20,000 nucleotides of DNA from Flectonema sp. DT1601. Taxonomy: Eukaryota. The notes under the pieces were generated by a model. The model had not been told where the DNA came from. It did no database searches and saw only the letters and a program-made list of their open reading frames with translations. The translations under genes were made by a program, and so were the position numbers. The stretch is taken from assembly GCA_964019425.1 (NCBI GenBank), contig OZ025784.1, forward strand, positions 1,721,502 to 1,741,501. The letters run 5' to 3'. Shown here one piece after another: positions 1 through 20,000 of this stretch. How positions within the stretch are numbered: the stretch's first letter is position 1; each line of letters starts with the position of its first letter.

Positions 1-1
1 C

Positions 2-424
2 GCGTCTGTAGGTAGTCGTCGTCAGATCGTTCACATACCATTAACAAACCTAACTCATGAAAATGCCCTGAATCTATTGAGACTTGACGAACTTAAAGGG
101 GCAGGGGATCTGGTAACTGAGTGGTCATTGAATATGTGTGCTGGTAATCCCCGTGCGATTGTGAGTCTCCCCGGAGTGATTAATGACGCAAAGTGTTTTG
201 GTACAGCTGGTCTTGCTTCACGCATAGCTAGTGGAATTTATAGAGCATGTATGTTTCAAACGCTTCACATTTCATTTGTTGAGGACCACCTCGCTGCAGT
301 TCTCACAAAGTCACTCAACAGTGCCACAGAGGATGCATTAAGAATTAGGGGTGCTCTCCACAAACTCTCCAATGGTGTTGAATGCTTAATTCCAATTTGG
401 TTTGGTTTGGGCATGGGCAAATGA
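2..424 (+). CDS. N-terminal portion (cut by the window edge) of a probable Crinkler/RHS-like protein; likely the C-terminal part of a P-loop NTPase module; frameshifts near 401-403 into the 402..1223 frame
   Basis: The frame of ORF 77..424 is open from base 2 (ASVGSRRQIVHIPLTNLTHENALNLLRLDE...). 'IVHIPL...CAGNPRAI' resembles the hhPL...GxPR motifs that follow STAND/Crinkler-type NTPase cores. Family call is motif recognition by eye, not a search. Confidence 0.5.
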   Translation, partial: ASVGSRRQIVHIPLTNLTHENALNLLRLDELKGAGDLVTEWSLNMCAGNPRAIVSLPGVINDAKCFGTAGLASRIASGIYRACMFQTLHISFVEDHLAAVLTKSLNSATEDALRIRGALHKLSNGVECLIPIWFGLGMGK

Positions 425-1223
425 AAAGCACACAAAGATGGTTGGGGAGTGGCTGGTTGGGGAGTGGTTGATTGAATATTTCGGCAGTGATGCAAACATG
501 AACCCCAAAACATTTGAAGAGACAACACTCTACTTTGAAGGGCTTCTGAACCATGCATACAGACAGCTGAAGAAAACACCATTTCTGAGTGAATATTTTG
601 ATGGGGCTGACCATATCCAGGAAAACATAAAAGAATTGATTGTTCACCCCAGGAAAGTGTTAAGAGCGGAAGAACCTTCATCCCTTAGCAGCTTGGGATC
701 TGAAGAGCTTTACAATAAGCTCCAATCTGGACAAGCTGTGTACTCGAAAAATGTTGTCGGAGAGGGTGGTGACATTCTGATCCCTTTGATGCTCTCTGAA
801 GGAAAGAAAAAGGCAACGCTCTACCTATTCTGTGCCCAGTGCAAACTAGCAAAGAGAGTCGATAGCCTCCAAGAAGTAGAAACGAAGGCTGTGGAAATTC
901 CAGCTGTCCAGGAACTCCAGGCTTGGGCGAATAAACAGAAGAAACCACTTGATGTACATGGTCTTTATTTCACCACACACACACCCAAGCTTCAAACTGC
1001 AAAGCGGAAGGGTGTTTGGTTCACAAAGGATTCTATGGAGAAGTGGCTGAGCAGACTTGGTTTGCCAAGAGTCAATTACCACCATGCAAGAACCTCAACA
1101 TCTGGTAGCTCCGCATTACTCAGACACCGGGCGATGAGCTGGTCTACACAACAAAGACCCCATCTACCCACAGCTAGATGCAATGCCCCAAACCTTTTAC
1201 GGCGAATCTGTAGATTTTTGTAG
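402..1223 (+). CDS. C-terminal portion of the same gene; probable PD-(D/E)xK restriction-endonuclease-fold domain (CR-REase-like)
   Basis: 273-codon non-repetitive ORF. Motif order 'TFEE' ... 'GGDIL' ... 'LFCAQCK' fits the E..D..QxK pattern of REase-fold domains in Crinkler/RHS proteins. Removing one T from TTT at 401-403 fuses it to the upstream frame (LIPIWLVWAWANEK). Confidence 0.6.
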   Translation: MVWAWANEKHTKMVGEWLVGEWLIEYFGSDANMNPKTFEETTLYFEGLLNHAYRQLKKTPFLSEYFDGADHIQENIKELIVHPRKVLRAEEPSSLSSLGSEELYNKLQSGQAVYSKNVVGEGGDILIPLMLSEGKKKATLYLFCAQCKLAKRVDSLQEVETKAVEIPAVQELQAWANKQKKPLDVHGLYFTTHTPKLQTAKRKGVWFTKDSMEKWLSRLGLPRVNYHHARTSTSGSSALLRHRAMSWSTQQRPHLPTARCNAPNLLRRICRFL

Positions 1224-2558
1224 AACTTTGATTTCTTATATTTCTATGGTGGCTTCAGTTACACCTTGAGAAAGAAAAAAAGAACCTTCTGGTACAATGC
1301 TGAGTCATCGTCCATTGCCTTCTCGGATCCCATGAGTTCTTTTAAGATGCTTTAATCCGCCGTTCTCCAATAGATTTAAGAAAGGTCCCTCAATTTCTTT
1401 TTAAGGGAAAATGCGTGTCTACTACTGCGTTCCATAGGCTAATCGAGCTGGTATTCGCTATGTAGGTTTACTGTTCCTTGATAGAAGAAATTCCCAAAAG
1501 TCCTTCAAAGTTTGTTTTAAAAAAAACCAAAAACTATGAAACAATAAAGAAGAAGAAGACGAATAGGAAGAATGAACGTGTGAAGGAAAAAAATAAATAA
1601 ATAGTATGCTAAAATCCAAGGTCCGGCGCAGTTATGACATTAAGTTGACTGTCATCTTACCTGATCCTTTTGGTTTTCATTTCTTGCTGAGTGATATGGC
1701 TATGTGCTGCCCAAATCTTTTGTGGTACGTTTCTAAAGCTTTTCGGTAAGCCCACAGTACAATTATAATGCTTTGGGCAACTGGGGGTGAACGATCCTCG
1801 GCACTGTTCCGGGGTTTTCTATTTTCTTTCGTGGAGTGTGGGCATATGGCACATGTGGTCGTATTATAAAGAAAGGTGTATATGAAAGAAAGAAGATTTT
1901 TTATTTTTTTCACCTTCAGATCATTTCTCTTTTATTTTCTTTAGTTGTTTACAACCTGTTAGCCTCTGGGCAAGGCTCGCTTCGCTTGCGCAAAGTTATT
2001 TATTTTTTCTGAATTAAGCTTGTTTTTCCTTTGCCTAAGCATGCAAAACTTAAAACGATGGCTAGGTAATAGTGAGTACGTCGCTTATTTCAAGTTGCCC
2101 ATTTTTATCTTTCTGAACAACCTTATTTTACAACCAAGTGAGTTTTTATTCCCTGTCAGGCTTTTTGGCCTCATCCTTTCTGTTGTTCTATCTCTCAGTT
2201 AATTTTAGTTTTCTGTTTCATTCAGCTTTTTCTTAGCAAACGCAAACTGAACTTAAAAACAAATAATCTTCTGCCAAAGCTTTTTGCAGCAGACATTGAA
2301 TTTTATGTCTGCTTCTTCCCTCCTTCGTTCCTTCTCGGTTCCTCTTTCTCAGTATTTTAAGTAACCCATTTCTATTTTCTTGATGTGATACTTCTGCTTT
2401 GCCTTCCGCTAACTTTTGGGAGGGCTTCATCACCAACGCTTTCTTTTTTGAGCCTTTTGTCGTTGTTCTGTTAGTTTCTGTCCCACCCAGCTCTTAGGCA
2501 GCACCTTATAGTAGGCCCCAATTTCCTTGGAACCCAAAAAATCCCCAATACTGGTATT

Positions 2559-2584
2559 AAACCCGCAAAACCTGCAAACCTGCA
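2559..2584. repeat. Degenerate 3-unit remnant or seed of the octamer repeat (AAACCCGC AAAACCTGC AAACCTGC A)
   Basis: Followed by the same CTAGAGATACCC junction as the arrays ending at 4282 and 8734. Upstream flank ATTTCCTTGGAACCCAAAAAATCCCCAAT resembles ATTTCCTCAGAACCCAAAATATCCCCAAT upstream of the 8430 array. Confidence 0.85.
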
Positions 2585-2699
2585 CTAGAGATACCCTTCC
2601 AGGCTCGCACACAACTTTTTTTTTTAAAGCTTTCTGAGCAAACATCATTTTTACAACCAAGTCACGTCTGTTTTTATTCCCTGGCTAGGTACCCGTCCA

Positions 2700-2763
2700 G
2701 GGTACAAATTTGAACTTAACTTTACGCTCGCTTCGCTCGCGTTAAGTTAAGTCCAATGTACCC
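2700..2763. other. Imperfect hairpin with a GCTCGCTTCGCTCGC centre, copy A (right arm 3 nt shorter than in B and C)
   Basis: GGGTACAAATTTGAACTTAACTTTACGC ... GCGTTAAGTTAAGTCCAATGTACCC. Confidence 0.85.
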
Positions 2764-2802
2764 TTTTCCTTGCTAATTTTTCTGGTTGAAAAACACAAAA
2801 AA

Positions 2803-2872
2803 TGTGCCTGGGAATTGAACCCTTGCCACGGCTACCGAAGAGATTTAAGGTATCCACTCGGCTGTGCAGCCC
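2803..2872 (-). pseudogene. Degenerate tRNA-like / Pol III type-2 promoter unit (also at ~4524-4593 and ~8980-9049)
   Basis: Minus strand reads CAGCCGAGTGG (A-box-like), then GGTTCAATTCC (B-box) ~44 nt later, then a T-run. Cloverleaf stems do not pair well, so it is not an intact tRNA. Confidence 0.45.
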
Positions 2873-2895
2873 TGGGATTTTCTTTTTTTTTTATA

Positions 2896-2977
2896 CTGTA
2901 AAGGGAAATTCTTGTGGGGAAAAACCCGCGAGTTTGAAAAAAAATCTCCAAATCCGCGAGAATATTTCCCTTTACAG
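2896..2977. mobile_element. 82-bp MITE with 14-bp perfect TIRs and a TA target-site duplication (Tc1/mariner-pogo-type signature)
   Basis: TA|CTGTAAAGGGAAAT...ATTTCCCTTTACAG|TA. Removing the element and one TA gives TTTTATATTTATTTATTTGTGTG, the sequence at the paralogous empty site in copy C (~9066-9088). Confidence 0.88.
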
Positions 2978-4060
2978 TATTTATTTATTTGTGTGTTCTT
3001 AGCCTCTTTATGGAAATCCTTCCATTTTCCCTTCCCTCCAGTCTTAACATAGGAGAGTCTACCAGGTGCCTACCCTGGACGCCCTTCGGGCGCGGGATTT
3101 GAACTAATTGCGTGTACGGGCGCGATGGGTTATTGCAGTGGCAGGGGGTCGAACCAGCGATCACCCAGCCTTTTTTTTTTAACAGGCCCAAAGGGCGACA
3201 ATGAAAGATGCTGACCAAGGAATAATATTCAAATGAATTTTTGTTTCAAAGAAACAAACAGGATTAAGGGAGAGGCAGAAAAAAAAAAAAAAAATAATAT
3301 GAAGAGGAAATAATCAAACATGAAAAAAAAAGATAAAATAAAAATAAATAAACGTTATATATAAGCAATTTCTTTTTTTTTCCGCAATTTTCTATTTATT
3401 TATTACTTTTCTGTCCCAACGGGACGACAAATGAAAAATGTCCTCCCTTAGCTGAAAATGCACACTGCACCCTGTTTTATCAAGTCCTTTGTTTTTGTTT
3501 TTCTGAAAGATATCTGTAGTTGTTGTTATATGCTAGCACGAAAACGACAGCTAGGTTTATGATGATTGGATATCTGTTTGTTACATTTGGAAGTATTTTA
3601 CAACAGGTTTATCGAACCTGTATCTGCAATGTGTGCGACCCTGGGATGGGAATATAGGAATTTAGTTATATTAATAAGGTTATCGTTCATTATTTCCAAT
3701 AAAATAGAAATGTGGGAAGAACTATGGGATGGCGGGACGCAGCCCCCCCCCCCAACCCCCCCCAAGGGGGGGGAGCCACTAATAAAGGCCAACCTCCTGA
3801 AAAAGAATCAAGAAAAAACAAAAATGCCCTCACCCAGGGTCGAACTGGTTTACAGCCATTTTGGGTTTTGTAAAGAATGGTTAGTTCTGAAACTATTTGT
3901 GTAGGAAAGACCCTTTACCCAAAAAGAAATGAAATCAAAGATTGCTTTTTCACAGCTTGGCACCTAAAATCCAAAACTCATTAAGAAGGAAAAAATTATT
4001 TCAAAAAGAAAGTTTTTGCTAACTAAATTGGCAGCCATACACCTAAATTTCAAAACCATA

Positions 4061-4282
4061 CCCGCAAACCCGCAAACCCGCAAACCCGCAAACCCGCAAA
4101 CCCGCAAACCCGCAAACCCGCAAACCCGCAAACCCGCAAACCCGCAAACCCGCAAACCCGCAAACCCGCAAACCCGCAAACCCGCAAACCCGCAAACCCG
4201 CAAACCCGCAAACCCGCAAACCCGCAAACCCGCAAACCCGCAAACCCGCAAACCCGCAAACCCGCAAACCCGCAAACCCGCA
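4061..4282. repeat. Telomere-like octamer array (CCCGCAAA), ~28 units
   Basis: Perfect tandem 8-mer, 222 bp. Confidence 0.98.
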
Positions 4283-4403
4283 CTAGAGATACCCCTTCCA
4301 GGCTCGCGTTGCTCGCACAATTTTTTTTTTAAGCTTTCTGAACAAACATTATTTTTACAACCAAGTCACGTCTGTTTTTATTCCCTGGCTAGGTACCCGT
4401 CCA

Positions 4404-4470
4404 GGGTACAAATTTGAACTTAACTTTACGCTCGCTTTGCTCGCGTTAAGTTAAGTCCAATTTTGTACCC
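4404..4470. other. Hairpin with 28-bp arms (25/28 complementary) and 11-nt loop, copy B (copy C at 8860-8926)
   Basis: Left arm GGGTACAAATTTGAACTTAACTTTACGC versus reverse complement of the right arm GGGTACAAAATTGGACTTAACTTAACGC. Confidence 0.9.
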
Positions 4471-4770
4471 TTTTCCTTGCTACTTTCTTCTTACTAATTT
4501 TTCTGGTTGAAAAACACAAAAAATGTGCCTGGGAATTGAACCCTTGCCACGGCTACCGAAGAGATTTAAGGTATCCACTCGGCTGTGCAGCCCTGGGATT
4601 TTCTTTTTTTTTTTTATTTATTTATTTGTGTGTTCTTAGCCTCTTTATGGAAATCCTTCCATTTTCCCTTCCCTCCAGTCTTAACGTAGGAGAGTCTACC
4701 AGGTGCCTACCCTGGATGCCCTTCGGGCGCGGGATTTGAACTAATTGCGTGTACGGGCGCGATGGGTTAT

Positions 4771-4841
4771 TGCAGTGGCAGGGGGTCGAACCAGCGATCA
4801 CCCAGCCCCAGGGCGAGGGTTATACCACTACCCTGGGATAT
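4771..4841 (-). pseudogene. Degenerate tRNA-like sequence resembling tRNA-Gly (also ~9227-9298; partly deleted in copy A)
   Basis: Minus strand TAGTGGTATAACCCTCGCC...GGTTCGACCCCCTGCCACTGCA resembles the eukaryotic tRNA-Gly pattern CAGTGGTAGAATTCTCGCC...GGTTCGATTCCCGGCCAATGCA. Acceptor and anticodon stems are not intact. Confidence 0.4.
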
Positions 4842-5463
4842 CGCAACTTTTTATTATTATTACTTTTCTGCAATTTTTATTTATAAATAAGTTTTCGAAA
4901 AGGTGAGAAGTAACGGGCTGGGAGCTTTTGGCTCCTGCCCTATTCCCGATGTAAACTTTCTTTTCTTTTTTTTTTTTTTTTTAAACAGGCCCAAGGGGCG
5001 ACAATGACTGTTGCTGACCAAGGAATAATATTCAAATGAATTTTCGTTTCAAAGAAACGAACAGGATTAAGGGAGAGGCAGAAAAAAAAAAAAAAAATAA
5101 TATGAAGAGGAAATAATCAAACATGAAAAAAAAAAATAAAATAAAAATAAATAAACGTTATATATAAGCAATTTCTTTTTTTTTTTGCAATTTTTTATTT
5201 ATTTATTACTTTTCTGTCCCAACAGGACGACAAATGAAAAATGTCCTCCCTTAGCTGAAAATGCACACTGCACCCTGTTTTATCAAGTCCTTTGTTTTTG
5301 TTTTTCTGAAAGATATCTGTAGTTGTTGTTATATTAATATGCTAGCACGAAAACGACGGCTAGGTTTATGATGATTGGATATGTGGCTTAGGTTATCTGT
5401 TTGTTACATTTGGAAGTATTTTACAACAGGTTTATCGAACCTGTATCTGCAATGTGTGCGACC

Positions 5464-7246
5464 GAAATAAGCAGCTAAGGTTTGCTTGCGGGAAGAGAAT
5501 CAGCAGCTAAAATTTGCTTGCGGGAAGAGAATCAGCAGCTAAAATTTGCTTGCGGGAAGAAAATAAGCAGCTAAAATTTGCTTGCGGGAAGAAAATAAGC
5601 AGCTAAAATTTGCTTGCGGGAAGAAAATAAGCAGCTAAGGTTTGCTTGCGGGAAGAGAATCAGCAGCTAAAATTTGCTTGCGGGAAGAGAATCAGCAGCT
5701 AAAATTTGCTTGCGGGAAGAAAATAAGCAGCCAAAATTTGCTTGCGGGAAGAAAATAAGCAGCTAAAATTTGCTTGCGGGAAGAAAATAAGCAGCCAAAA
5801 TTTGCTTGCGGGAAGAAAATAAGCAGCTAAAATTTGCTTGCGGGAAGAAAATAAGCAGCTAAGGTTTGCTTGCGGGAAGAGAATCAGCAGCTAAAATTTG
5901 CTTGCGGGAAGAAAATAAGCAGCTAAAATTTGCTTGCGGGAAGAAAATAAGCAGCCAAAATTTGCTTGCGGGAAGAAAATAAGCAGCTAAGATTTGCTTG
6001 CGGGAAGAGAATCAGCAGCTAAAATTTGCTTGCGGGAAGAAAATAAGCAGCTAAAATTTGCTTGCGGGAAGAAAATAAGCAGCTAAAATTTGCTTGCGGG
6101 AAGAAAATAAGCAGCTAAAATTTGCTTGCGGGAAGAAAATAAGCAGCTAAGATTTGCTTGCGGGAAGAGAATCAGCAGCTAAAATTTGCTTGCGGGAAGA
6201 AAATAAGCAGCTAAGGTTTGCTTGCGGGAAGAGAATCAGCAGCTAAAATTTGCTTGCGGGAAGAAAATAAGCAGCTAAGATTTGCTTGCGGGAAGAGAAT
6301 CAGCAGCTAAAATTTGCTTGCGGGAAGAGAATCAGCAGCTAAAATTTGCTTGCGGGAAGAGAATCAGCAGCTAAAATTTGCTTGCGGGAAGAAAATAAGC
6401 AGCTAAAATTTGCTTGCGGGAAGAAAATAAGCAGCTAAAATTTGCTTGCGGGAAGAAAATAAGCAGCTAAGGTTTGCTTGCGGGAAGAGAATCAGCAGCT
6501 AAAATTTGCTTGCGGGAAGAGAATCAGCAGCTAAAATTTGCTTGCGGGAAGAAAATAAGCAGCCAAAATTTGCTTGCGGGAAGAAAATAAGCAGCTAAAA
6601 TTTGCTTGCGGGAAGAAAATAAGCAGCTAAGGTTTGCTTGCGGGAAGAGAATCAGCAGCTAAAATTTGCTTGCGGGAAGAAAATAAGCAGCTAAAATTTG
6701 CTTGCGGGAAGAAAATAAGCAGCCAAAATTTGCTTGCGGGAAGAAAATAAGCAGCTAAAATTTGCTTGCGGGAAGAAAATAAGCAGCTAAGATTTGCTTG
6801 CGGGAAGAGAATCAGCAGCTAAAATTTGCTTGCGGGAAGAAAATAAGCAGCTAAAATTTGCTTGCGGGAAGAAAATAAGCAGCTAAAATTTGCTTGCGGG
6901 AAGAAAATAAGCAGCTAAAATTTGCTTGCGGGAAGAAAATAAGCAGCTAAGATTTGCTTGCGGGAAGAAAATAAGCAGCTAAAATTTGCTTGCGGGAAGA
7001 AAATAAGCAGCTAAAATTTGCTTGCGGGAAGAAAATAAGCAGCCAAAATTTGCTTGCGGGAAGAGAATCAGCAGCTAAAATTTGCTTGCGGGAAGAAAAT
7101 AAGCAGCTAAAATTTGCTTGCGGGAAGAAAATAAGCAGCTAAAATTTGCTTGCGGGAAGAAAATAAGCAGCCAAAATTTGCTTGCGGGAAGAGAATCAGC
7201 AGCTAAAATTTGCTTGCGGGAAGAAAATTAGCAGCCAAAATTTGCT
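5464..7246. repeat. 32-bp minisatellite, ~56 units, consensus AAAATTTGCTTGCGGGAAGAAAATAAGCAGCT
   Basis: Head-to-tail units without spacers. Variants AAAA/AAGG/AAGA, GAAAATAAG/GAGAATCAG, GCT/GCC. Confidence 0.98.
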
Positions 7247-7380
7247 CTGGGGTGCTACATAAGCATTGATTGCAGAAAGGTGGCAAAAATGAAAGGAATT
7301 ATTTATTAAAACCCAAATTGTCTAAACCATAACAGAAAGAAAGCTTGGCACCAAAACCCTAAAACCTATTCTCCTCAGGG

Positions 7381-7632
7381 ATTTGTGAAGCCTTTTCGGG
7401 ATCGATAGGCCAAGGGATAACCATAAAAAAGGTGTAACCATGATTTCTTGGAGGTGAGTGGCACAAAAAGCAGTAAAAAAAAAAAAAAAAAATCCCGTGA
7501 CAAAGGCAAATAACTGCAAAAGCAGCAATTCTCTTTCCGCAAACGCCCCCCCGTTTAACATGCCACACTCTACCTTTCTTCCCGTAATGCGTGACACCAT
7601 TCAACACTTACGTAGCACTTAGCACCAGGCCT
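7381..7632 (+). repeat. Diverged ~250-280 bp direct repeat, copy 1 (copy 2 at ~8025-8304)
   Basis: Shared ATTTGTGAAG.CTTTTCGGG, GATAACCATAAAAAA, TGGAGGTGAGTGGC, poly-A, CCGTGACAAAGGCAAATAAC and CCGTAATGCGTG.CACCA.TCAACACTTA. Confidence 0.88.
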
Positions 7633-7968
7633 GCCAGCAGGAAGAAACAGAAGCCTCATTCTCAGTACGGAAGTAGCTAGGCCTGGCCAGCTTACATAGC
7701 ACTTCTGAGCAACCTAATATTATTCCTGCAATGCGTGACACTATTACGTAGCACTTGGCACCAGGCCTGCCAGCAGGAAGAAACAGAAGCCTCATTCCCA
7801 GTACGGAAGTGGCTAGGCCTGGCCAGCTTACATAGCACTTCTGGGTGACCTAATATTATTCCTGTAATGCGTGACACTATTACGTAGCACTTAGCATCAG
7901 GCCTGCTAGCAGGAAGAAACAGAAGCCTCATTCCCAGTACGGAAGTAGCTAGGCCTGGCCAGCTTACA
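7584..7968. repeat. 136-bp tandem repeat, ~2.8 units
   Basis: TTACGTAGCACTT recurs at 7608, 7744 and 7880 (period 136), with near-identical intervening sequence. Confidence 0.93.
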
Positions 7969-8024
7969 GTGCTGTGTAAGTTTTGACTGGCAAACAACTG
8001 CAAAACTTTTTTCTCCACCCAGAA

Positions 8025-8304
8025 ATTTGTGAAGACTTTTCGGGGCCGATAGATCGAGAGATAACCATAAAAAAAGATGTACTCATGATTTTTTGGAGGT
8101 GAGTGGCGCAAAGTGGTAAAAAAAAAAAAAAAAATTCCGTGACAAAGGCAAATAACAGCAATTTTCTTTCTGCAAACGCCCGCCGTGGATCATCAGACTG
8201 TCATTTGGTAGCGCCGACTTGCCACAGGTCAATATGCAACGCTACTTTTCTTTCCGTAATGCGTGGCACCAGTCAACACTTATGTTGCACTTAGAACCAG
8301 ACCT
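8025..8304 (+). repeat. Diverged direct repeat, copy 2 (of 7381-7632)
   Basis: Same shared motifs as copy 1. Confidence 0.85.
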
Positions 8305-8429
8305 TCTTGCTGGAATGCAAAGAAGAATTAGTGTGTAATTAGGTGAGGCCTGGCCTGGGTACCTGGCCCAGGACTTGGTGGATTTCCTCAGAACCCAAAA
8401 TATCCCCAATGCTGACAATTATATAGGAG

Positions 8430-8734
8430 AAACCCGCAAACCCGCAAACCCGCAAACCCGCAAACCCGCAAACCCGCAAACCCGCAAACCCGCAAACCCG
8501 CAAACCCGCAAACCCGCAAACCCGCAAACCCGCAAACCCGCAAACCCGCAAACCCGCAAACCCGCAAACCCGCAAACCCGCAAACCCGCAAACCCGCAAA
8601 CCCGCAAACCCGCAAACCCGCAAACCCGCAAACCCGCAAACCCGCAAACCCGCAAACCCGCAAACCCGCAAACCCGCAAACCCGCAAACCCGCAAACCCG
8701 CAAACCCGCAAACCCGCAAACCCGCAAACCCGCA
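8430..8734. repeat. Telomere-like octamer array (AAACCCGC), ~38 units
   Basis: Perfect tandem 8-mer, 305 bp, ending CCCGCA|CTAGAG. Confidence 0.98.
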
Positions 8735-10360
8735 CTAGAGATACCCCTTCCAGGCTCGCGTTGCTCGCACACAACTTTTTTTTTTTAAGCTTTCTGAACA
8801 AACATTATTTTTACAACCAAGTCACGTCTGTTTTTATTCCCTGGCTAGGTACCCGTCCAGGGTACAAATTTGAACTTAACTTTACGCTCGCTTCGCTCGC
8901 GTTAAGTTAAGTCCAATTTTGTACCCTTTTCCTTGCTACTTTCTTCTTACTAATTTTTCTGGTTGAAAGACACAAAAAATGTGCCTGGGAATTGAACCCT
9001 TGCCACGGCTACCGAAGAGATTTAAGGTATCCACTCGGCTGTGCAGCCCTGGGGTTTTCTTTTTTTTTTATATTTATTTATTTGTGTGTTCTTAGCCTCT
9101 TTATGGAAATCCTTCCATTTTCCCTTCCCTCCAGTCTTAACGTAGGAGAGTCTACCAGGTGCCTACCCTGGACGCCCTTCGGGCGCGGGATTTGAACTAA
9201 TTGCGTGTACGGGCGCGATGGGTTATTGCAGTGGCAGGGGGTCGAACCAGCGATCACCCAGCCCCAGGGCGAGGGTTATACCACTACCCCTGGGATATCG
9301 CAACTTTTTATTATTTATTTATTATTTATTACTTTTCTGCAATTTTTATTTATAAATAAGTTTTCGAAAAGGTGGGAAGTAACGGACTGGGAGCTTTTGG
9401 CTCCTGCCCTATTCCCGATGTAAACTTTCTTTTTTTTTTTTTTTTTTTCTTTTTTAACAGGCCCAAAGGGCGACAATGAAAGATGCTGACCAAGGAATAG
9501 TATTCAAATGAATTTTTGTTTCAAAGAAACAAACAGGATTAAGGGAGAGGCAGAAAAAAAAAAAAAAAATAATATGAAGAGGAAATAATCAAACATGAAA
9601 AGAAAAGATAAAATAAAAATAAATAAACGTTATATATAAGCAATTTCTTTTTTTTTTCGCAATTTTTTATTTATTTATTACTTTTCTGTCCCAACGGGAC
9701 GACAAATGAAAAATGTCCTCCCTTAGCTGAAAATGCACACTGCACCCTGTTTTATCAAGTCCTTTGTTTTTGTTTTTCTGAAAGATATCTGTAGTTGTTG
9801 TTATATTAATATGCTAGCACGAAAACGACAGCTAGGTTTATGATGATTGCATATGTGGCTTAGGTTATCTGTTTGTTACATTTGGAAGTATTTTACAACA
9901 GGTTTATCGAACCTGTATCTGCAATGTGTGCGACCCTGGGATGGGAATATAGGAATTTAGTTATATTAATAAGGTTATCGTTCATTATTTCCAATAAAAT
10001 AGAAATGTGGGAAGAACTATGGGATGGCGGAACGCAGCCCCCCCCCCAACCCCCCCCAAGGGGGGGGAGCCACTAATAAAGGCCAACCCCCTGAAAAAGA
10101 ATCAAGAAAGAACAAAAATGCCCTCACCCAGGGTCGAACTGGACGGTTTACAGCCATTTTGGGTTTTGTAAAGAATGGTTAGTTCTGAAACTATTTGTGT
10201 AGGAAAGACCCTTTACCCAAAAAGAAATGAAATCAAAGATTGCTTTTTCACAGCTTGGCACCTAAAATCCAAAACTCATTAAGAAGGAAAAAATTATTTC
10301 AAAAAGAAAATTTTTGCTAACTAAATTGGCAGCCATACACCTAAATTTCAAAACCATACC
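8735..10360 (+). repeat. Array-associated block, copy C (most complete; continues through 10361-10718 into the 32-bp satellite)
   Basis: Collinear with copy A up to CAAAACCATACC and with copy B up to GCGACC (9935). Confidence 0.95.
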
Positions 10361-10650
10361 ACTTACTAACAAAATTTCTTTCTCATCACTTTTTATATTT
10401 TAAGAAAATGGTTAACAGGAATTTATGAAGACTTTTGGATAGATCAACTATGTGTTCCCATCTTTTTTAGGAGATCTGTAGAAAAGAATAAATCTTTCAG
10501 AAAATATTATAAAGGGAAGATTTCTTCTGAAGAATTTTTTTTTAACTACCTACTAAATTGGCAACCATACACTTAAATTTCAAAACCATACTAAAAAAGA
10601 ATTTTCATCACATTTTATACTTTAAGAAAATAAATGGTTACCCATCTTTT
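10318..10650 (+). repeat. Diverged local direct duplication (~232-bp offset)
   Basis: CTAAATTGGCAGCCATACACCTAAATTTCAAAACCATAC (10321) versus CTAAATTGGCAACCATACACTTAAATTTCAAAACCATAC (10553). Similarity continues to TTTAAGAAAAT...GGTTA. Confidence 0.8.
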
Positions 10651-10718
10651 TTAGACCTGCTCGGGCACAAAAATCCAGCATTTTTCCTTAGGCAAATAAA
10701 TCTTACTTACTTCCTACT

Positions 10719-10871
10719 GAAGAAAATTGGCAGCTAAAATTTGTTTGCGGGAAGAAAATAAGCAGCTAAAATTTGCTTGCGGGAAGGGAATCAGCAGCTA
10801 AAATTTGCTTGCGGGAAGAAAATAAGCAGCTAAAATTTGCTTGCGGGAAGAGAATCAGCAGCCAAGATTTG
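10719..10871. repeat. Short copy of the 32-bp minisatellite (~4.8 units), interrupted by an octamer array
   Basis: Same unit as 5464-7246. The first unit is degenerate and contains a perfect TTTGCGGG (10744-10751). Confidence 0.95.
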
Positions 10872-11114
10872 CCCGCAAACCCGCAAACCCGCAAACCCGC
10901 AAACCCGCAAACCCGCAAACCCGCAAACCCGCAAACCCGCAAACCCGCAAACCCGCAAACCCGCAAACCCGCAAACCCGCAAACCCGCAAACCCGCAAAC
11001 CCGCAAACCCGCAAACCCGCAAACCCGCAAACCCGCAAACCCGCAAACCCGCAAACCCGCAAACCCGCAAACCCGCAAACCCGCAAACCCGCAAACCCGC
11101 AAACCCGCAAACCC
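10872..11114. repeat. Telomere-like octamer array (CCCGCAAA), ~30 units
   Basis: Perfect tandem 8-mer, 243 bp. Confidence 0.98.
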
Positions 11115-11572
11115 AAAGAGCTTAAGTTGATACTCTTTTCAATGTCACTATAGTCCATTTTGATAACGTTTTCCACAACAGATCTGGAAAATAGTAATTC
11201 GCGATTGCAGGTGTCGTTGAGAATCATATCCTTCGTACGGACTTTCATCTTAAGAGCACAGGTCTTTGAGACCGACAGGGCCATGTCGTTGTCAGAACAC
11301 CATTGATCCACTTTATCAAGTATTATTTGAGCACTTGAAAGAGCTTCTTCCATGTTATGTCCAGATACTACACATGCTGTATCATCCGCATACAGAGCAG
11401 ACGTCGTTGTTTCTTTCTCCAGTTCCAAAATCTTGCAGAGGTCATCAACGTAGATAAGATAGAGAAGAGGACCCAGGATCGATCCCTGTGGAACCCCCTT
11501 AGCCAGAGTACGGAATTCGCTAAAGTAACCATTCGCTTCAACTCTAACCTTCCTGTTTGTAAGAAAGTCTTG
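11115..11572 (-). mobile_element. Internal fragment of a non-LTR (LINE-like) retrotransposon reverse transcriptase, ~153 codons, truncated at both ends by octamer arrays
   Basis: Stop-free translation QDFLTNRKVRV...GVPQGSILGPLLYLIYVDDL...LYADDTA...WCSDNDMALSVSKT. GVPQGS at 11480-11497 and YADD at 11381-11392 are typical non-LTR RT core motifs. No endonuclease, 3' UTR or poly(A) tail. Confidence 0.93.
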
Positions 11573-14500
11573 CCCGCAAACCCGCAAACCCGCAAACCCG
11601 CAAACCCGCAAACCCGCAAACCCGCAAACCCGCAAACCCGCAAACCCGCAAACCCGCAAACCCGCAAACCCGCAAACCCGCAAACCCGCAAACCCGCAAA
11701 CCCGCAAACCCGCAAACCCGCAAACCCGCAAACCCGCAAACCCGCAAACCCGCAAACCCGCAAACCCGCAAACCCGCAAACCCGCAAACCCGCAAACCCG
11801 CAAACCCGCAAACCCGCAAACCCGCAAACCCGCAAACCCGCAAACCCGCAAACCCGCAAACCCGCAAACCCGCAAACCCGCAAACCCGCAAACCCGCAAA
11901 CCCGCAAACCCGCAAACCCGCAAACCCGCAAACCCGCAAACCCGCAAACCCGCAAACCCGCAAACCCGCAAACCCGCAAACCCGCAAACCCGCAAACCCG
12001 CAAACCCGCAAACCCGCAAACCCGCAAACCCGCAAACCCGCAAACCCGCAAACCCGCAAACCCGCAAACCCGCAAACCCGCAAACCCGCAAACCCGCAAA
12101 CCCGCAAACCCGCAAACCCGCAAACCCGCAAACCCGCAAACCCGCAAACCCGCAAACCCGCAAACCCGCAAACCCGCAAACCCGCAAACCCGCAAACCCG
12201 CAAACCCGCAAACCCGCAAACCCGCAAACCCGCAAACCCGCAAACCCGCAAACCCGCAAACCCGCAAACCCGCAAACCCGCAAACCCGCAAACCCGCAAA
12301 CCCGCAAACCCGCAAACCCGCAAACCCGCAAACCCGCAAACCCGCAAACCCGCAAACCCGCAAACCCGCAAACCCGCAAACCCGCAAACCCGCAAACCCG
12401 CAAACCCGCAAACCCGCAAACCCGCAAACCCGCAAACCCGCAAACCCGCAAACCCGCAAACCCGCAAACCCGCAAACCCGCAAACCCGCAAACCCGCAAA
12501 CCCGCAAACCCGCAAACCCGCAAACCCGCAAACCCGCAAACCCGCAAACCCGCAAACCCGCAAACCCGCAAACCCGCAAACCCGCAAACCCGCAAACCCG
12601 CAAACCCGCAAACCCGCAAACCCGCAAACCCGCAAACCCGCAAACCCGCAAACCCGCAAACCCGCAAACCCGCAAACCCGCAAACCCGCAAACCCGCAAA
12701 CCCGCAAACCCGCAAACCCGCAAACCCGCAAACCCGCAAACCCGCAAACCCGCAAACCCGCAAACCCGCAAACCCGCAAACCCGCAAACCCGCAAACCCG
12801 CAAACCCGCAAACCCGCAAACCCGCAAACCCGCAAACCCGCAAACCCGCAAACCCGCAAACCCGCAAACCCGCAAACCCGCAAACCCGCAAACCCGCAAA
12901 CCCGCAAACCCGCAAACCCGCAAACCCGCAAACCCGCAAACCCGCAAACCCGCAAACCCGCAAACCCGCAAACCCGCAAACCCGCAAACCCGCAAACCCG
13001 CAAACCCGCAAACCCGCAAACCCGCAAACCCGCAAACCCGCAAACCCGCAAACCCGCAAACCCGCAAACCCGCAAACCCGCAAACCCGCAAACCCGCAAA
13101 CCCGCAAACCCGCAAACCCGCAAACCCGCAAACCCGCAAACCCGCAAACCCGCAAACCCGCAAACCCGCAAACCCGCAAACCCGCAAACCCGCAAACCCG
13201 CAAACCCGCAAACCCGCAAACCCGCAAACCCGCAAACCCGCAAACCCGCAAACCCGCAAACCCGCAAACCCGCAAACCCGCAAACCCGCAAACCCGCAAA
13301 CCCGCAAACCCGCAAACCCGCAAACCCGCAAACCCGCAAACCCGCAAACCCGCAAACCCGCAAACCCGCAAACCCGCAAACCCGCAAACCCGCAAACCCG
13401 CAAACCCGCAAACCCGCAAACCCGCAAACCCGCAAACCCGCAAACCCGCAAACCCGCAAACCCGCAAACCCGCAAACCCGCAAACCCGCAAACCCGCAAA
13501 CCCGCAAACCCGCAAACCCGCAAACCCGCAAACCCGCAAACCCGCAAACCCGCAAACCCGCAAACCCGCAAACCCGCAAACCCGCAAACCCGCAAACCCG
13601 CAAACCCGCAAACCCGCAAACCCGCAAACCCGCAAACCCGCAAACCCGCAAACCCGCAAACCCGCAAACCCGCAAACCCGCAAACCCGCAAACCCGCAAA
13701 CCCGCAAACCCGCAAACCCGCAAACCCGCAAACCCGCAAACCCGCAAACCCGCAAACCCGCAAACCCGCAAACCCGCAAACCCGCAAACCCGCAAACCCG
13801 CAAACCCGCAAACCCGCAAACCCGCAAACCCGCAAACCCGCAAACCCGCAAACCCGCAAACCCGCAAACCCGCAAACCCGCAAACCCGCAAACCCGCAAA
13901 CCCGCAAACCCGCAAACCCGCAAACCCGCAAACCCGCAAACCCGCAAACCCGCAAACCCGCAAACCCGCAAACCCGCAAACCCGCAAACCCGCAAACCCG
14001 CAAACCCGCAAACCCGCAAACCCGCAAACCCGCAAACCCGCAAACCCGCAAACCCGCAAACCCGCAAACCCGCAAACCCGCAAACCCGCAAACCCGCAAA
14101 CCCGCAAACCCGCAAACCCGCAAACCCGCAAACCCGCAAACCCGCAAACCCGCAAACCCGCAAACCCGCAAACCCGCAAACCCGCAAACCCGCAAACCCG
14201 CAAACCCGCAAACCCGCAAACCCGCAAACCCGCAAACCCGCAAACCCGCAAACCCGCAAACCCGCAAACCCGCAAACCCGCAAACCCGCAAACCCGCAAA
14301 CCCGCAAACCCGCAAACCCGCAAACCCGCAAACCCGCAAACCCGCAAACCCGCAAACCCGCAAACCCGCAAACCCGCAAACCCGCAAACCCGCAAACCCG
14401 CAAACCCGCAAACCCGCAAACCCGCAAACCCGCAAACCCGCAAACCCGCAAACCCGCAAACCCGCAAACCCGCAAACCCGCAAACCCGCAAACCCGCAAA

Positions 14501-17500
14501 CCCGCAAACCCGCAAACCCGCAAACCCGCAAACCCGCAAACCCGCAAACCCGCAAACCCGCAAACCCGCAAACCCGCAAACCCGCAAACCCGCAAACCCG
14601 CAAACCCGCAAACCCGCAAACCCGCAAACCCGCAAACCCGCAAACCCGCAAACCCGCAAACCCGCAAACCCGCAAACCCGCAAACCCGCAAACCCGCAAA
14701 CCCGCAAACCCGCAAACCCGCAAACCCGCAAACCCGCAAACCCGCAAACCCGCAAACCCGCAAACCCGCAAACCCGCAAACCCGCAAACCCGCAAACCCG
14801 CAAACCCGCAAACCCGCAAACCCGCAAACCCGCAAACCCGCAAACCCGCAAACCCGCAAACCCGCAAACCCGCAAACCCGCAAACCCGCAAACCCGCAAA
14901 CCCGCAAACCCGCAAACCCGCAAACCCGCAAACCCGCAAACCCGCAAACCCGCAAACCCGCAAACCCGCAAACCCGCAAACCCGCAAACCCGCAAACCCG
15001 CAAACCCGCAAACCCGCAAACCCGCAAACCCGCAAACCCGCAAACCCGCAAACCCGCAAACCCGCAAACCCGCAAACCCGCAAACCCGCAAACCCGCAAA
15101 CCCGCAAACCCGCAAACCCGCAAACCCGCAAACCCGCAAACCCGCAAACCCGCAAACCCGCAAACCCGCAAACCCGCAAACCCGCAAACCCGCAAACCCG
15201 CAAACCCGCAAACCCGCAAACCCGCAAACCCGCAAACCCGCAAACCCGCAAACCCGCAAACCCGCAAACCCGCAAACCCGCAAACCCGCAAACCCGCAAA
15301 CCCGCAAACCCGCAAACCCGCAAACCCGCAAACCCGCAAACCCGCAAACCCGCAAACCCGCAAACCCGCAAACCCGCAAACCCGCAAACCCGCAAACCCG
15401 CAAACCCGCAAACCCGCAAACCCGCAAACCCGCAAACCCGCAAACCCGCAAACCCGCAAACCCGCAAACCCGCAAACCCGCAAACCCGCAAACCCGCAAA
15501 CCCGCAAACCCGCAAACCCGCAAACCCGCAAACCCGCAAACCCGCAAACCCGCAAACCCGCAAACCCGCAAACCCGCAAACCCGCAAACCCGCAAACCCG
15601 CAAACCCGCAAACCCGCAAACCCGCAAACCCGCAAACCCGCAAACCCGCAAACCCGCAAACCCGCAAACCCGCAAACCCGCAAACCCGCAAACCCGCAAA
15701 CCCGCAAACCCGCAAACCCGCAAACCCGCAAACCCGCAAACCCGCAAACCCGCAAACCCGCAAACCCGCAAACCCGCAAACCCGCAAACCCGCAAACCCG
15801 CAAACCCGCAAACCCGCAAACCCGCAAACCCGCAAACCCGCAAACCCGCAAACCCGCAAACCCGCAAACCCGCAAACCCGCAAACCCGCAAACCCGCAAA
15901 CCCGCAAACCCGCAAACCCGCAAACCCGCAAACCCGCAAACCCGCAAACCCGCAAACCCGCAAACCCGCAAACCCGCAAACCCGCAAACCCGCAAACCCG
16001 CAAACCCGCAAACCCGCAAACCCGCAAACCCGCAAACCCGCAAACCCGCAAACCCGCAAACCCGCAAACCCGCAAACCCGCAAACCCGCAAACCCGCAAA
16101 CCCGCAAACCCGCAAACCCGCAAACCCGCAAACCCGCAAACCCGCAAACCCGCAAACCCGCAAACCCGCAAACCCGCAAACCCGCAAACCCGCAAACCCG
16201 CAAACCCGCAAACCCGCAAACCCGCAAACCCGCAAACCCGCAAACCCGCAAACCCGCAAACCCGCAAACCCGCAAACCCGCAAACCCGCAAACCCGCAAA
16301 CCCGCAAACCCGCAAACCCGCAAACCCGCAAACCCGCAAACCCGCAAACCCGCAAACCCGCAAACCCGCAAACCCGCAAACCCGCAAACCCGCAAACCCG
16401 CAAACCCGCAAACCCGCAAACCCGCAAACCCGCAAACCCGCAAACCCGCAAACCCGCAAACCCGCAAACCCGCAAACCCGCAAACCCGCAAACCCGCAAA
16501 CCCGCAAACCCGCAAACCCGCAAACCCGCAAACCCGCAAACCCGCAAACCCGCAAACCCGCAAACCCGCAAACCCGCAAACCCGCAAACCCGCAAACCCG
16601 CAAACCCGCAAACCCGCAAACCCGCAAACCCGCAAACCCGCAAACCCGCAAACCCGCAAACCCGCAAACCCGCAAACCCGCAAACCCGCAAACCCGCAAA
16701 CCCGCAAACCCGCAAACCCGCAAACCCGCAAACCCGCAAACCCGCAAACCCGCAAACCCGCAAACCCGCAAACCCGCAAACCCGCAAACCCGCAAACCCG
16801 CAAACCCGCAAACCCGCAAACCCGCAAACCCGCAAACCCGCAAACCCGCAAACCCGCAAACCCGCAAACCCGCAAACCCGCAAACCCGCAAACCCGCAAA
16901 CCCGCAAACCCGCAAACCCGCAAACCCGCAAACCCGCAAACCCGCAAACCCGCAAACCCGCAAACCCGCAAACCCGCAAACCCGCAAACCCGCAAACCCG
17001 CAAACCCGCAAACCCGCAAACCCGCAAACCCGCAAACCCGCAAACCCGCAAACCCGCAAACCCGCAAACCCGCAAACCCGCAAACCCGCAAACCCGCAAA
17101 CCCGCAAACCCGCAAACCCGCAAACCCGCAAACCCGCAAACCCGCAAACCCGCAAACCCGCAAACCCGCAAACCCGCAAACCCGCAAACCCGCAAACCCG
17201 CAAACCCGCAAACCCGCAAACCCGCAAACCCGCAAACCCGCAAACCCGCAAACCCGCAAACCCGCAAACCCGCAAACCCGCAAACCCGCAAACCCGCAAA
17301 CCCGCAAACCCGCAAACCCGCAAACCCGCAAACCCGCAAACCCGCAAACCCGCAAACCCGCAAACCCGCAAACCCGCAAACCCGCAAACCCGCAAACCCG
17401 CAAACCCGCAAACCCGCAAACCCGCAAACCCGCAAACCCGCAAACCCGCAAACCCGCAAACCCGCAAACCCGCAAACCCGCAAACCCGCAAACCCGCAAA

Positions 17501-20000
17501 CCCGCAAACCCGCAAACCCGCAAACCCGCAAACCCGCAAACCCGCAAACCCGCAAACCCGCAAACCCGCAAACCCGCAAACCCGCAAACCCGCAAACCCG
17601 CAAACCCGCAAACCCGCAAACCCGCAAACCCGCAAACCCGCAAACCCGCAAACCCGCAAACCCGCAAACCCGCAAACCCGCAAACCCGCAAACCCGCAAA
17701 CCCGCAAACCCGCAAACCCGCAAACCCGCAAACCCGCAAACCCGCAAACCCGCAAACCCGCAAACCCGCAAACCCGCAAACCCGCAAACCCGCAAACCCG
17801 CAAACCCGCAAACCCGCAAACCCGCAAACCCGCAAACCCGCAAACCCGCAAACCCGCAAACCCGCAAACCCGCAAACCCGCAAACCCGCAAACCCGCAAA
17901 CCCGCAAACCCGCAAACCCGCAAACCCGCAAACCCGCAAACCCGCAAACCCGCAAACCCGCAAACCCGCAAACCCGCAAACCCGCAAACCCGCAAACCCG
18001 CAAACCCGCAAACCCGCAAACCCGCAAACCCGCAAACCCGCAAACCCGCAAACCCGCAAACCCGCAAACCCGCAAACCCGCAAACCCGCAAACCCGCAAA
18101 CCCGCAAACCCGCAAACCCGCAAACCCGCAAACCCGCAAACCCGCAAACCCGCAAACCCGCAAACCCGCAAACCCGCAAACCCGCAAACCCGCAAACCCG
18201 CAAACCCGCAAACCCGCAAACCCGCAAACCCGCAAACCCGCAAACCCGCAAACCCGCAAACCCGCAAACCCGCAAACCCGCAAACCCGCAAACCCGCAAA
18301 CCCGCAAACCCGCAAACCCGCAAACCCGCAAACCCGCAAACCCGCAAACCCGCAAACCCGCAAACCCGCAAACCCGCAAACCCGCAAACCCGCAAACCCG
18401 CAAACCCGCAAACCCGCAAACCCGCAAACCCGCAAACCCGCAAACCCGCAAACCCGCAAACCCGCAAACCCGCAAACCCGCAAACCCGCAAACCCGCAAA
18501 CCCGCAAACCCGCAAACCCGCAAACCCGCAAACCCGCAAACCCGCAAACCCGCAAACCCGCAAACCCGCAAACCCGCAAACCCGCAAACCCGCAAACCCG
18601 CAAACCCGCAAACCCGCAAACCCGCAAACCCGCAAACCCGCAAACCCGCAAACCCGCAAACCCGCAAACCCGCAAACCCGCAAACCCGCAAACCCGCAAA
18701 CCCGCAAACCCGCAAACCCGCAAACCCGCAAACCCGCAAACCCGCAAACCCGCAAACCCGCAAACCCGCAAACCCGCAAACCCGCAAACCCGCAAACCCG
18801 CAAACCCGCAAACCCGCAAACCCGCAAACCCGCAAACCCGCAAACCCGCAAACCCGCAAACCCGCAAACCCGCAAACCCGCAAACCCGCAAACCCGCAAA
18901 CCCGCAAACCCGCAAACCCGCAAACCCGCAAACCCGCAAACCCGCAAACCCGCAAACCCGCAAACCCGCAAACCCGCAAACCCGCAAACCCGCAAACCCG
19001 CAAACCCGCAAACCCGCAAACCCGCAAACCCGCAAACCCGCAAACCCGCAAACCCGCAAACCCGCAAACCCGCAAACCCGCAAACCCGCAAACCCGCAAA
19101 CCCGCAAACCCGCAAACCCGCAAACCCGCAAACCCGCAAACCCGCAAACCCGCAAACCCGCAAACCCGCAAACCCGCAAACCCGCAAACCCGCAAACCCG
19201 CAAACCCGCAAACCCGCAAACCCGCAAACCCGCAAACCCGCAAACCCGCAAACCCGCAAACCCGCAAACCCGCAAACCCGCAAACCCGCAAACCCGCAAA
19301 CCCGCAAACCCGCAAACCCGCAAACCCGCAAACCCGCAAACCCGCAAACCCGCAAACCCGCAAACCCGCAAACCCGCAAACCCGCAAACCCGCAAACCCG
19401 CAAACCCGCAAACCCGCAAACCCGCAAACCCGCAAACCCGCAAACCCGCAAACCCGCAAACCCGCAAACCCGCAAACCCGCAAACCCGCAAACCCGCAAA
19501 CCCGCAAACCCGCAAACCCGCAAACCCGCAAACCCGCAAACCCGCAAACCCGCAAACCCGCAAACCCGCAAACCCGCAAACCCGCAAACCCGCAAACCCG
19601 CAAACCCGCAAACCCGCAAACCCGCAAACCCGCAAACCCGCAAACCCGCAAACCCGCAAACCCGCAAACCCGCAAACCCGCAAACCCGCAAACCCGCAAA
19701 CCCGCAAACCCGCAAACCCGCAAACCCGCAAACCCGCAAACCCGCAAACCCGCAAACCCGCAAACCCGCAAACCCGCAAACCCGCAAACCCGCAAACCCG
19801 CAAACCCGCAAACCCGCAAACCCGCAAACCCGCAAACCCGCAAACCCGCAAACCCGCAAACCCGCAAACCCGCAAACCCGCAAACCCGCAAACCCGCAAA
19901 CCCGCAAACCCGCAAACCCGCAAACCCGCAAACCCGCAAACCCGCAAACCCGCAAACCCGCAAACCCGCAAACCCGCAAACCCGCAAACCCGCAAACCCG
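11573..20000. repeat. Long homogeneous telomere-like array (CCCGCAAA)n / (TTTGCGGG)n, >8.4 kb, ~1050 units, extending past the window
   Basis: No variant units seen by eye. The TnGGG-type unit with strong G/C strand asymmetry resembles telomerase-made repeats; telomeric function is inferred. Confidence 0.97.

What the first reader, a model, noticed from the sequence alone, without database searches (positions are those of the whole stretch)
10872..11620. Stop-free LINE reverse-transcriptase core embedded directly inside telomere-like repeats
Seen: 458 bp encoding only the RT catalytic core is flanked on both sides by same-polarity octamer arrays. It is in sense on the G-rich strand and has no TSD, poly(A) or 3' UTR. 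Its 5' junction is TTTGCGGG|CAAGAC. Its 3' junction is ...CTCTTT|GGGTTTGCGGG, a TTTGGG seed resembling the repeat. Known: SART/TRAS elements target insect telomere repeats (SART is in sense on the G-strand). Ordinary TPRT products keep their 3' end, and end-primed elements such as HeT-A/TART read antisense on the G-strand. Inference: either a telomere-repeat-targeting LINE that was 5'-truncated, broken and healed by new repeat addition, or a DNA fragment captured on a telomeric end and re-capped. The absence of stops suggests a recent event and an intact parent element elsewhere.
Basis: partly seen in the sequence, partly recalled or inferred. Interest (0 to 1): 0.85.

Follow-up and report, generated by a model that had tools for sequence, protein, structure and literature searches.

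The report
LINE fragment patched into telomere-like repeats
A 458-base middle piece of a jumping gene's copying enzyme sits between two flawless runs of an eight-base, telomere-like repeat in what is likely a diplonemid protist; it nearly matches an intact, many-copy parent element and is most likely a one-off repair patch at a DNA break rather than a telomere-targeting element.

Summary
Bases 11115-11572 (minus strand) are a stop-free LINE reverse-transcriptase (RT) piece between two perfect, same-polarity CCCGCAAA arrays of 30 and at least 1053 units. The piece is residues 546-696 of an intact 1253-1289-aa parent (2A, APE, RT, RNase H-like part), 149/151 identical to the nearest listed member of a 101-member cluster. 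The nearest named kin are from the diplonemid Flectonema. It is not the whole catalytic core: the first catalytic aspartate and the YLG motif are missing, so it is a relic. Telomere targeting finds no support. No truncated family member shows octamer-derived flanks, and 1 of 46 array flanks seen through predicted proteins is LINE (a sister family, antisense). Best reading: an array end captured a doubly truncated LINE segment without a site-specific endonuclease, and repeats then resumed. This is a known kind of repair scar. No genome or reads were available, so the parent's DNA context, an assembly chimera and the array's telomeric status are untested. Side findings are more striking: TTTGCGGG is a candidate telomere motif not found in my paper searches, and several flank families join it at a fixed CTAG register.

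The parts
11115..11572 (-). Internal, doubly truncated RT piece of a 2A-APE-RT-RNase H-like LINE (parent residues 546-696); lacks the first catalytic aspartate; relic
11570..11572 (-). 2-3-base filler (CA or CAA) at the 5' junction. The parent has a Thr codon here, which cannot read CAA. On the plus strand the same TTG precedes the array at 10872
   Evidence: inference from the parent protein, parent DNA not seen
11112..11117 (-). 3' junction. The match to the parent (N-S-S-R) ends within TCT-T, and the first repeat unit is the variant TTTGGG
   Evidence: inference
10872..11114 (.). Perfect octamer array, 30 units plus CCC, C-rich on plus
11573..20000 (.). Perfect octamer array, at least 1053 units, no mismatch in 8,428 bp, runs off the window; C-rich on plus
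10719..10871 (.). Five units of a 32-bp satellite carrying an octamer-like motif in the opposite polarity; joined to the array with 1 shared base
8735..10718 (-). Non-coding repeat unit A/B, copy 3; joined to the array at CTAG|TGCGGG
8430..8734 (.). Perfect octamer array, about 38 units
4283..8430 (-). Non-coding composite (unit C, 32-bp satellite 5465-7246, unit A) reading TC...CTAG between TT and T of the octamer register
4061..4282 (.). Perfect octamer array, about 28 units; left junction shares 2 bases with the truncated unit B
2555..4060 (-). Older copy 1 of unit A/B with three degenerate octamers at its left end

Best explanation
The 458-bp insert is an internal, non-functional piece of a many-copy LINE family, and it was most likely patched onto an octamer-array end during break repair rather than placed by a repeat-specific endonuclease. 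Shown: the piece matches parent residues 546-696 at 97-99%, is cut at both ends, and lies between same-polarity perfect arrays in a region of shuffled array-flank units. Inferred steps: (1) a broken or unprotected array end reading ...GCGGG-3' was joined to, or copied from, a LINE copy through a 2-3-base filler; (2) copying or the fragment ended at ...TCTT, where a 2-base TT match let repeats resume with one variant unit (TTTGGG), either by telomerase or by rejoining the other half of the array; (3) the event is recent. The open frame has no predicted function.
For: Parent at 147/151 to 149/151 identity, in a cluster of 101 members. Both ends are truncated, there is no poly(A), and the first codon cannot come from the parent's Thr codon. 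Other joins in the window link arrays to internal points of non-LINE repeats with 1-2 shared bases (4060, 10871). In predicted proteins that carry the repeat, left and right flank families recur in shuffled combinations. 1 of 46 flanks is LINE-derived, from a sister family and antisense (score 80 against a shuffle maximum of 45). None of 20 truncation ends among 76 family members is octamer-derived. Precedent: L1 insertions made without the endonuclease are typically cut at both ends and occur at dysfunctional telomeres (PMC4859970, passages); Pyricularia telomere repair captures other sequences and internalises telomeres (PMC8381367, passages).
Against: The parent's DNA was not seen, so microhomology at both breakpoints is inferred from protein only. 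An array of at least 8.4 kb is not a critically short telomere, unlike the internalised telomeres expected in Pyricularia. The TTG shared by the junctions at 10872 and 11573 points instead to a duplication (chance about 0.02-0.06, post hoc). The flank tests rest on possibly spliced gene models and cannot see copies preceded by an ATG-free array. Only 15 of 101 cluster members were listed. No reads were available.
Confidence: 0.6

Rival explanations
1. RNA-primed patch with a duplication. The C-rich strand's 3' end at 11114 primed LINE cDNA inside the RNA. After about 455 bases synthesis jumped back to the satellite/array junction, duplicating TTG plus about 30 units (about 246 bp). The short array would then be a copy, not new telomere.
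For: Both left junctions read TTG|CCCGCAAA, with AAG at the same offset before it. Chance of the shared bases is 0.06 (TG) to 0.02 (TTG) by local word frequency. The insert is antisense on the C-rich strand, as cDNA primed there would be. Internal priming is described for L1 (PMC4859970, passages).
Against: The match is 2-3 bases and was noticed after the fact. A fold-back of the array's own end would also give CAA. RNA and DNA templates cannot be told apart from sequence.
Confidence: 0.17
2. Assembly chimera: the RT piece was stitched between arrays by a chimeric read or by a mis-join in the perfect repeat.
For: Long perfect repeats and a 100-copy element are where assemblies fail (general knowledge). 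The long array's polarity is the reverse of what a right-hand chromosome end should show.
Against: It needs two joins within 458 bp into arrays of one polarity. The repeat copies nearby differ by 3-10%, so they are not collapsed duplicates. The same unit-A junction occurs in other predicted proteins.
Confidence: 0.1
3. A SART-like LINE that targets the octamer inserted in sense on the G-rich strand, was 5'-truncated, then broke and was healed by new repeats.
For: The orientation fits (SART orientation recalled, not checked). The register offset allows an 11-bp duplication. A sister-family RT segment lies near an array at a second locus.
Against: The 3' end is missing, which needs a second event. 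5 of 6 N-terminal extras are non-octamer, 3 of them in this family or its 96% relative. None of 46 array flanks is from this family. The second LINE case is antisense and about 10 codons from the array. The architecture is L1Tc/Ingi-like.
Confidence: 0.08
4. The chromosome end lies to the right and the C/A-rich strand runs to it. The RT piece is LINE cDNA primed at that terminal 3' end, cut short and capped by the 8.4-kb array.
For: An age gradient runs left to right: an 82% A-like remnant near 2100, degenerate octamers near 2560, perfect short arrays, the near-intact RT, then the long perfect array. A broken host gene lies at the far left.
Against: Every telomerase repeat I know has its G-rich strand running to the end (recalled). 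Capture of an old segment onto a canonical end gives the same picture. The window's place in its contig is unknown.
Confidence: 0.05

Closest known systems
Endonuclease-independent LINE-1 insertions, including those at dysfunctional telomeres (as reviewed in PMC4859970; passages seen)
   Same: LINE piece cut at both ends, no poly(A), at a break or telomere-like site
   Different: A protist L1Tc/Ingi-like element; sense on the G-rich strand; repeats on both sides; template (RNA or DNA) unknown
Internalised telomeres, duplicative capture and MoTeR relics in Pyricularia (Magnaporthe) oryzae (PMC7367193, PMC8381367; passages seen)
   Same: Interstitial repeat tracts between captured segments; rare relics with repeats at both borders
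   Different: MoTeR relics keep the element's 3' end and intact MoTeRs occur only in telomeres; this piece is internal and its family shows non-repeat flanks
L1Tc (Trypanosoma cruzi) and Ingi (T. brucei) (PMC3708506, PMC5814959; passages seen)
   Same: 2A motif directly before APE, then RT and an RNase H-like part in one long frame; likely euglenozoan host
   Different: One CX2C motif seen at the C-terminus rather than two C2H2 fingers; long family-specific insert after YADD; clade not tested on a tree with named references
SART1/TRAS1, R1 clade (PMC1919474; passages seen)
   Same: APE-type LINE sequence inside telomere-like repeats
   Different: These have two ORFs and insert specifically; here there is no 3' end and no evidence of family-wide targeting

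Membership tests
SART/TRAS telomere-specific LINEs (R1 clade) | Copy keeps its 3' end joined to the repeat | tested here: not met
   The insert stops at parent residue 696 of 1253
SART/TRAS telomere-specific LINEs (R1 clade) | Family copies lie in the repeat at a fixed register | tested here: inconclusive
   None of 20 truncation ends octamer-derived; 5 of 6 N-extras foreign; none of 46 array flanks from this family; protein-level only, blind to array-preceded copies
SART/TRAS telomere-specific LINEs (R1 clade) | Separate ORF1 upstream of ORF2 | not testable with these tools
   Parent DNA not available; a 2A motif before APE argues for one ORF
SART/TRAS telomere-specific LINEs (R1 clade) | RT phylogeny within R1 | not tested
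   No named R1 reference among the tree rows
Ingi/L1Tc clade | 2A motif GD(V/I)ExNPGP directly upstream of APE | tested here: met
   P0122, P0131, P0134 and six members of the sister cluster; motif from PMC3708506, which also finds 2A in Rex1, Crack, L2, L2A and CR1
Ingi/L1Tc clade | APE, RT and RNase H in one frame | tested here: met
   APE and RT by Pfam in P0002 and P0122; RNase H above cut-off in relatives P0006 and P0011, below it in P0009 and P0157, no hit in P0002 or P0122; RNase H-like acidic motifs in P0002 at 962, 1002 and 1030
Ingi/L1Tc clade | Two C-terminal C2H2 fingers as in L1Tc | tested here: inconclusive
   One CX2C motif at 1171 of P0002; L1Tc feature from PMC5814959
Ingi/L1Tc clade | RT phylogeny with Ingi/L1Tc; 5' Pr77/ribozyme signature | not tested
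   The tree shows only a 100/100 clade of the unnamed families plus two Flectonema elements; no 5' DNA
Endonuclease-independent (repair) insertion | Truncated at both ends, no poly(A) | tested here: met
Endonuclease-independent (repair) insertion | No target duplication and no endonuclease consensus | tested here: inconclusive
   The perfect array hides a duplication; offset 3 modulo 8; family consensus unknown
End-primed elements (HeT-A/TART, telomeric Penelope-like; features recalled) | Antisense on the G-rich strand, 3' end toward the centromere | tested here: not met
   The insert is sense on the G-rich strand
Telomerase-made telomere repeat | Long, homogeneous G-rich tandem array | tested here: met
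   No mismatch in 8,428 bp
Telomerase-made telomere repeat | At chromosome ends, G-rich strand running outward; matching RNA template | not testable with these tools
   No genome; the arrays seen here and in predicted proteins have flanks on both sides
Helitron (for the neighbouring C-A unit; features recalled) | 5' TC, 3' CTAG, no target duplication | tested here: met
   One copy: register preserved between TT and T; the first T could equally belong to the array
Helitron (for the neighbouring C-A unit; features recalled) | Short hairpin just before the 3' end; A|T target | tested here: not met
   Last 40 bases fold no better than shuffles (z -0.3); target is T|T; no terminal inverted repeat above the null

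The most novel reading that the evidence does not exclude
TTTGCGGG/CCCGCAAA is an undescribed telomere repeat of a diplonemid, and its arrays are hubs that several TC...CTAG non-coding element families colonise at a fixed register. In the boldest form, the C/A-rich strand is the one that runs to the chromosome end, and the RT piece is LINE cDNA primed at that end and then re-capped by 8.4 kb of repeats.
Probability: 0.06. Interest if true: 0.85.

Novelty: new member of a known kind. Interest (0 to 1): 0.38.

Why it matters
As a single event it is a clean natural example of LINE sequence used as filler at a telomere-like array outside animals and fungi. It dates such repair as recent in a genome with several intact LINE families. 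The larger value is the lead it gives. Kinetoplastids use TTAGGG (recalled), and my searches found no telomere motif reported for diplonemids. An 8-base candidate with many internal arrays and fixed CTAG junctions makes diplonemid telomere identity, polarity and telomerase template directly testable from an existing assembly.

Tried and rejected
No whole genome is held. For sequencing runs of 7250-8420, none was listed, so no reads were laid. The octamer scan of metagenome contigs gave 28 loci with perfect runs of 3-13 units, none similar to the window's non-array DNA or to the RT; viral contigs gave 0. The parent LINE in viral contigs gave no match. ARAGORN found 0 genes, and Rfam gave 8 weak matches, none at gathering score, in 1-11600. 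The solved-structure search gave only RT-domain matches (L1 ORF2 best, E 4e-20; R2 next) and nothing on endonuclease specificity. Earlier findings: nothing by place or sequence; four loose analogues by words. Rejected: a functional telomere-RT fusion protein, because the octamer is stop-free in every frame and the piece lacks a catalytic aspartate. Rejected: the lack of stops as a sign of selection, because 2 residues differ from the nearest member. Both of those changes are N-to-S, too few to argue for editing. The upstream phase that one search printed for the C-A unit is off through my slicing; I use the junction printed. A paper search for Helitrons in telomeric repeats with all five terms returned 0.

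Full report
Observation. The sequence at 10872-11620 is as described. An array of CCCGCAAA (30 units plus CCC, 10872-11114) is followed by 458 unique bases and then by an array of at least 1053 units that runs off the window. Two more arrays lie at 4061-4282 and 8430-8734. All four have no mismatch to the unit, including 8,428 bp in the long one, and all are C-rich on the plus strand. The minus strand of 11114-11572 translates without a stop to 153 residues and matches Pfam RVT_1 at E 9.1e-14. Any open frame of that length appeared in 8 of 10,000 base shuffles. No whole genome is held and no sequencing run was listed, so everything beyond the window comes from predicted proteins.

The parent. 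A search of longer proteins found P0002 (1253 aa, 97% identical), representative of a 101-member cluster, and several sister families. Of that cluster 40 members were read and 15 listed. Against those 15 and P0004, the insert aligns to P0002 residues 546-696 at 147/151 and to P0135 at 149/151. It holds PQGS and YADD but not the motif at 512-520 with the first catalytic aspartate or the YLG motif at 755, so it cannot be a working RT. The longest members begin with a GDVERNPGP 2A motif just before the APE domain. APE and RT are clear by Pfam. RNase H passes the cut-off in two relatives, falls below it in two, and is not hit in P0002 or P0122, though acidic motifs sit where expected. PMC3708506 (passages) places 2A directly before APE in L1Tc and Ingi, says they lack ORF1, and notes 2A in five other clades too. 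PMC5814959 (passages) gives L1Tc one ORF, two C2H2 fingers and a 9-base duplication. I therefore call the parent L1Tc/Ingi-like by architecture; membership was not tested against named references. An RT tree used 30 chosen rows (28 of the 120 listed hits plus two cluster members); P0005 was dropped as too short and the fragment itself was not included. It puts the unnamed families and two Flectonema neradi elements in one clade at 100/100. The host gene at 390-1223 has a 94% relative whose longest contig has the same length as that of a LINE member. The host is thus likely a diplonemid whose assembly, or a very close one, holds these families (inference).

Junctions. At the 5' side the parent has Thr before Asp546, and no Thr codon reads CAA, so 2-3 bases are filler. 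At the 3' side the parent continues N-S-S-R. The match ends within TCT-T, and the first repeat unit is TTTGGG, a unit lacking two bases. The upstream array ends at phase 8 and the downstream one starts at phase 6. A target duplication of 3, 11 or 19 bp is therefore neither shown nor excluded. Both 10872 and 11573 are preceded on the plus strand by TTG, with AAG at the same offset before it; local word frequencies give 0.06 for TG and 0.02 for TTG. This may mean that the short array and its junction were duplicated around the insert, or that the array end folded back. It was noticed after the fact.

Is the family targeted to the octamer? Two indirect tests found no sign. First, among 76 listed members of five families, 20 truncation ends carry 8 or more extra residues and none is repeat-derived. 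Of the 6 N-terminal extras, 1 is a frameshift and 5 are foreign sequence, two of them lysine-rich. Second, because the octamer is stop-free in all frames, gene callers read through arrays. A G-strand query gave 48 hits, 36 with at least one exact unit; I took 16 of them, chosen by eye as host-like for long perfect runs or shared flanks (27 flanks). A C-strand query listed 150 of 867 hits, 11 with six or more perfect units (19 flanks). A frameshift-aware comparison with six family proteins, whose positive control scored 192 against a shuffle maximum of 42, found LINE sequence in 1 of 46 flanks. That one is P0203, matching a sister-family RT in antisense, score 80 against 45, about 10 codons from the array. 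Limits: gene models may be spliced, not all hits need come from the host, and a copy preceded by an ATG-free array leaves no trace in the first test.

Context. The region is a mosaic of three copies of a non-coding unit A/B (90-96% alike), a 32-bp satellite and a unit C, separated by arrays. Arrays join internal points of B and of the satellite with 2 and 1 shared bases. Unit A always joins at CTAG|TGCGGG on the G-rich strand. The same unit-A junction occurs in P0239 and P0315, and other flank families translate compatibly with the same CTAG start; left and right flank families recur in different pairings. The stretch 8430-4283 reads TC...CTAG between TT and T of the register, which recalls Helitron ends (recalled). 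It has no hairpin at the 3' end and no terminal inverted repeat above the null; its strong hairpin lies 120-190 bases inside. So these arrays are exchange points where many kinds of sequence get attached, and the RT piece is one of them.

Is the octamer a telomere repeat? Length, purity and a T3...G3 shape say likely (my estimate about 0.7). Against this, every array seen whole has flanks on both sides, and kinetoplastids use TTAGGG (recalled). With canonical polarity the chromosome end would lie to the left, making 1-11572 distal to an array of at least 8.4 kb. Yet the repeats get older leftward and a broken host gene lies at the far left. Capture of an old segment, an end-to-end fusion, a non-telomeric satellite or a reversed polarity would each explain this; I cannot choose without contig ends. 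Paper searches found no report of this motif as a telomere. Listings only were seen for (20 of 704 papers holding the string; 20 of 37). PMC10161547 (passages; 7 supplementary files searched) gives no telomere motif. PMC13598402 (term search and outline) has no 'telomer' in the main text served, though the search index counts two occurrences in a longer stored text that I could not see. Subscription papers and telomere databases were not searched.

Mechanism and comparison. The best reading (0.60) is a repair patch: an array end ending in GGG took on a LINE segment through filler, and repeats resumed at a 2-base match. With the RNA-primed, duplicating variant (0.17), repair filler of some form totals about 0.77. 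A chimera is 0.10, a SART-like element 0.08 and end-priming with reversed polarity 0.05. PMC4859970 (passages) describes endonuclease-independent L1 insertions as typically cut at both ends and as occurring at dysfunctional telomeres. PMC8381367 and PMC7367193 (passages) show capture of other sequences at failed telomeres, internalised repeat tracts, and two MoTeR relics with repeats at both borders. PMC1919474 (passages) lists SART1 and TRAS1 as two-ORF, target-specific R1-clade elements. The finding works like the first two and fails the tested SART feature.

Verdict. Real in the assembly, unverified by reads, and of a known kind: interest 0.38, new member of a known kind. The side findings (candidate motif, fixed CTAG junctions, polarity puzzle) deserve a look at the whole assembly.

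Noticed in passing
window 4283-8430 (minus); also 2585 and 8735: A non-coding unit reads TC...CTAG between TT and T of the octamer register. Several flank families in predicted proteins start with a compatible CTAG at the array. Possibly a repeat-targeting element family; no 3' hairpin.
   Followed up: partly
window 11573-20000 and the whole window: All arrays are C-rich toward the right, while repeat age falls left to right (82% remnant near 2100, degenerate units near 2560, perfect arrays further right). This does not sit easily with a canonical chromosome end on either side.
   Followed up: partly
window 5465-7246 and 10719-10871: A 32-bp satellite (55.7 and 4.8 units) carries TTGCGGG in the polarity opposite to the arrays and shares a short motif with unit B.
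   Followed up: no
window 2894-2979: A short inverted-repeat insertion, MITE-like, present in unit A copy 1 only.
   Followed up: no
window 4403-4471, 8859-8927, 2699-2764: A strong 69-base hairpin in unit A (z -10.4 against base shuffles). B-box-like motifs on the minus strand near 4530 and 4785, read by eye; no tRNA or Rfam family.
   Followed up: partly
window 2-1223 (plus): A frameshifted copy of a low-copy 402-aa host gene (P0193, 94%). No Pfam family; the atlas gives unnamed fungal clusters (0.93-0.95, low recognition) and a weak euglenozoan cluster with RHSP in 11% of members.
   Followed up: partly
proteins P0004 and P0170: 5'-truncated copies of two different LINE families follow the same foreign upstream peptide, hinting at a shared non-octamer insertion hot spot or a shared exon.
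   Followed up: no
protein P0203: A second octamer array lies near an antisense RT segment of a sister LINE family.
   Followed up: partly
protein P0199: An array is followed in frame by a coding stretch that looks OTU-protease-like by eye (recalled motif; no Pfam hit).
   Followed up: partly
window 7576-7968: A 136-bp tandem repeat (2.7 copies) inside unit C; C's right end (8382-8414) has an 88% copy at 2521-2553 beside the degenerate octamers.
   Followed up: no
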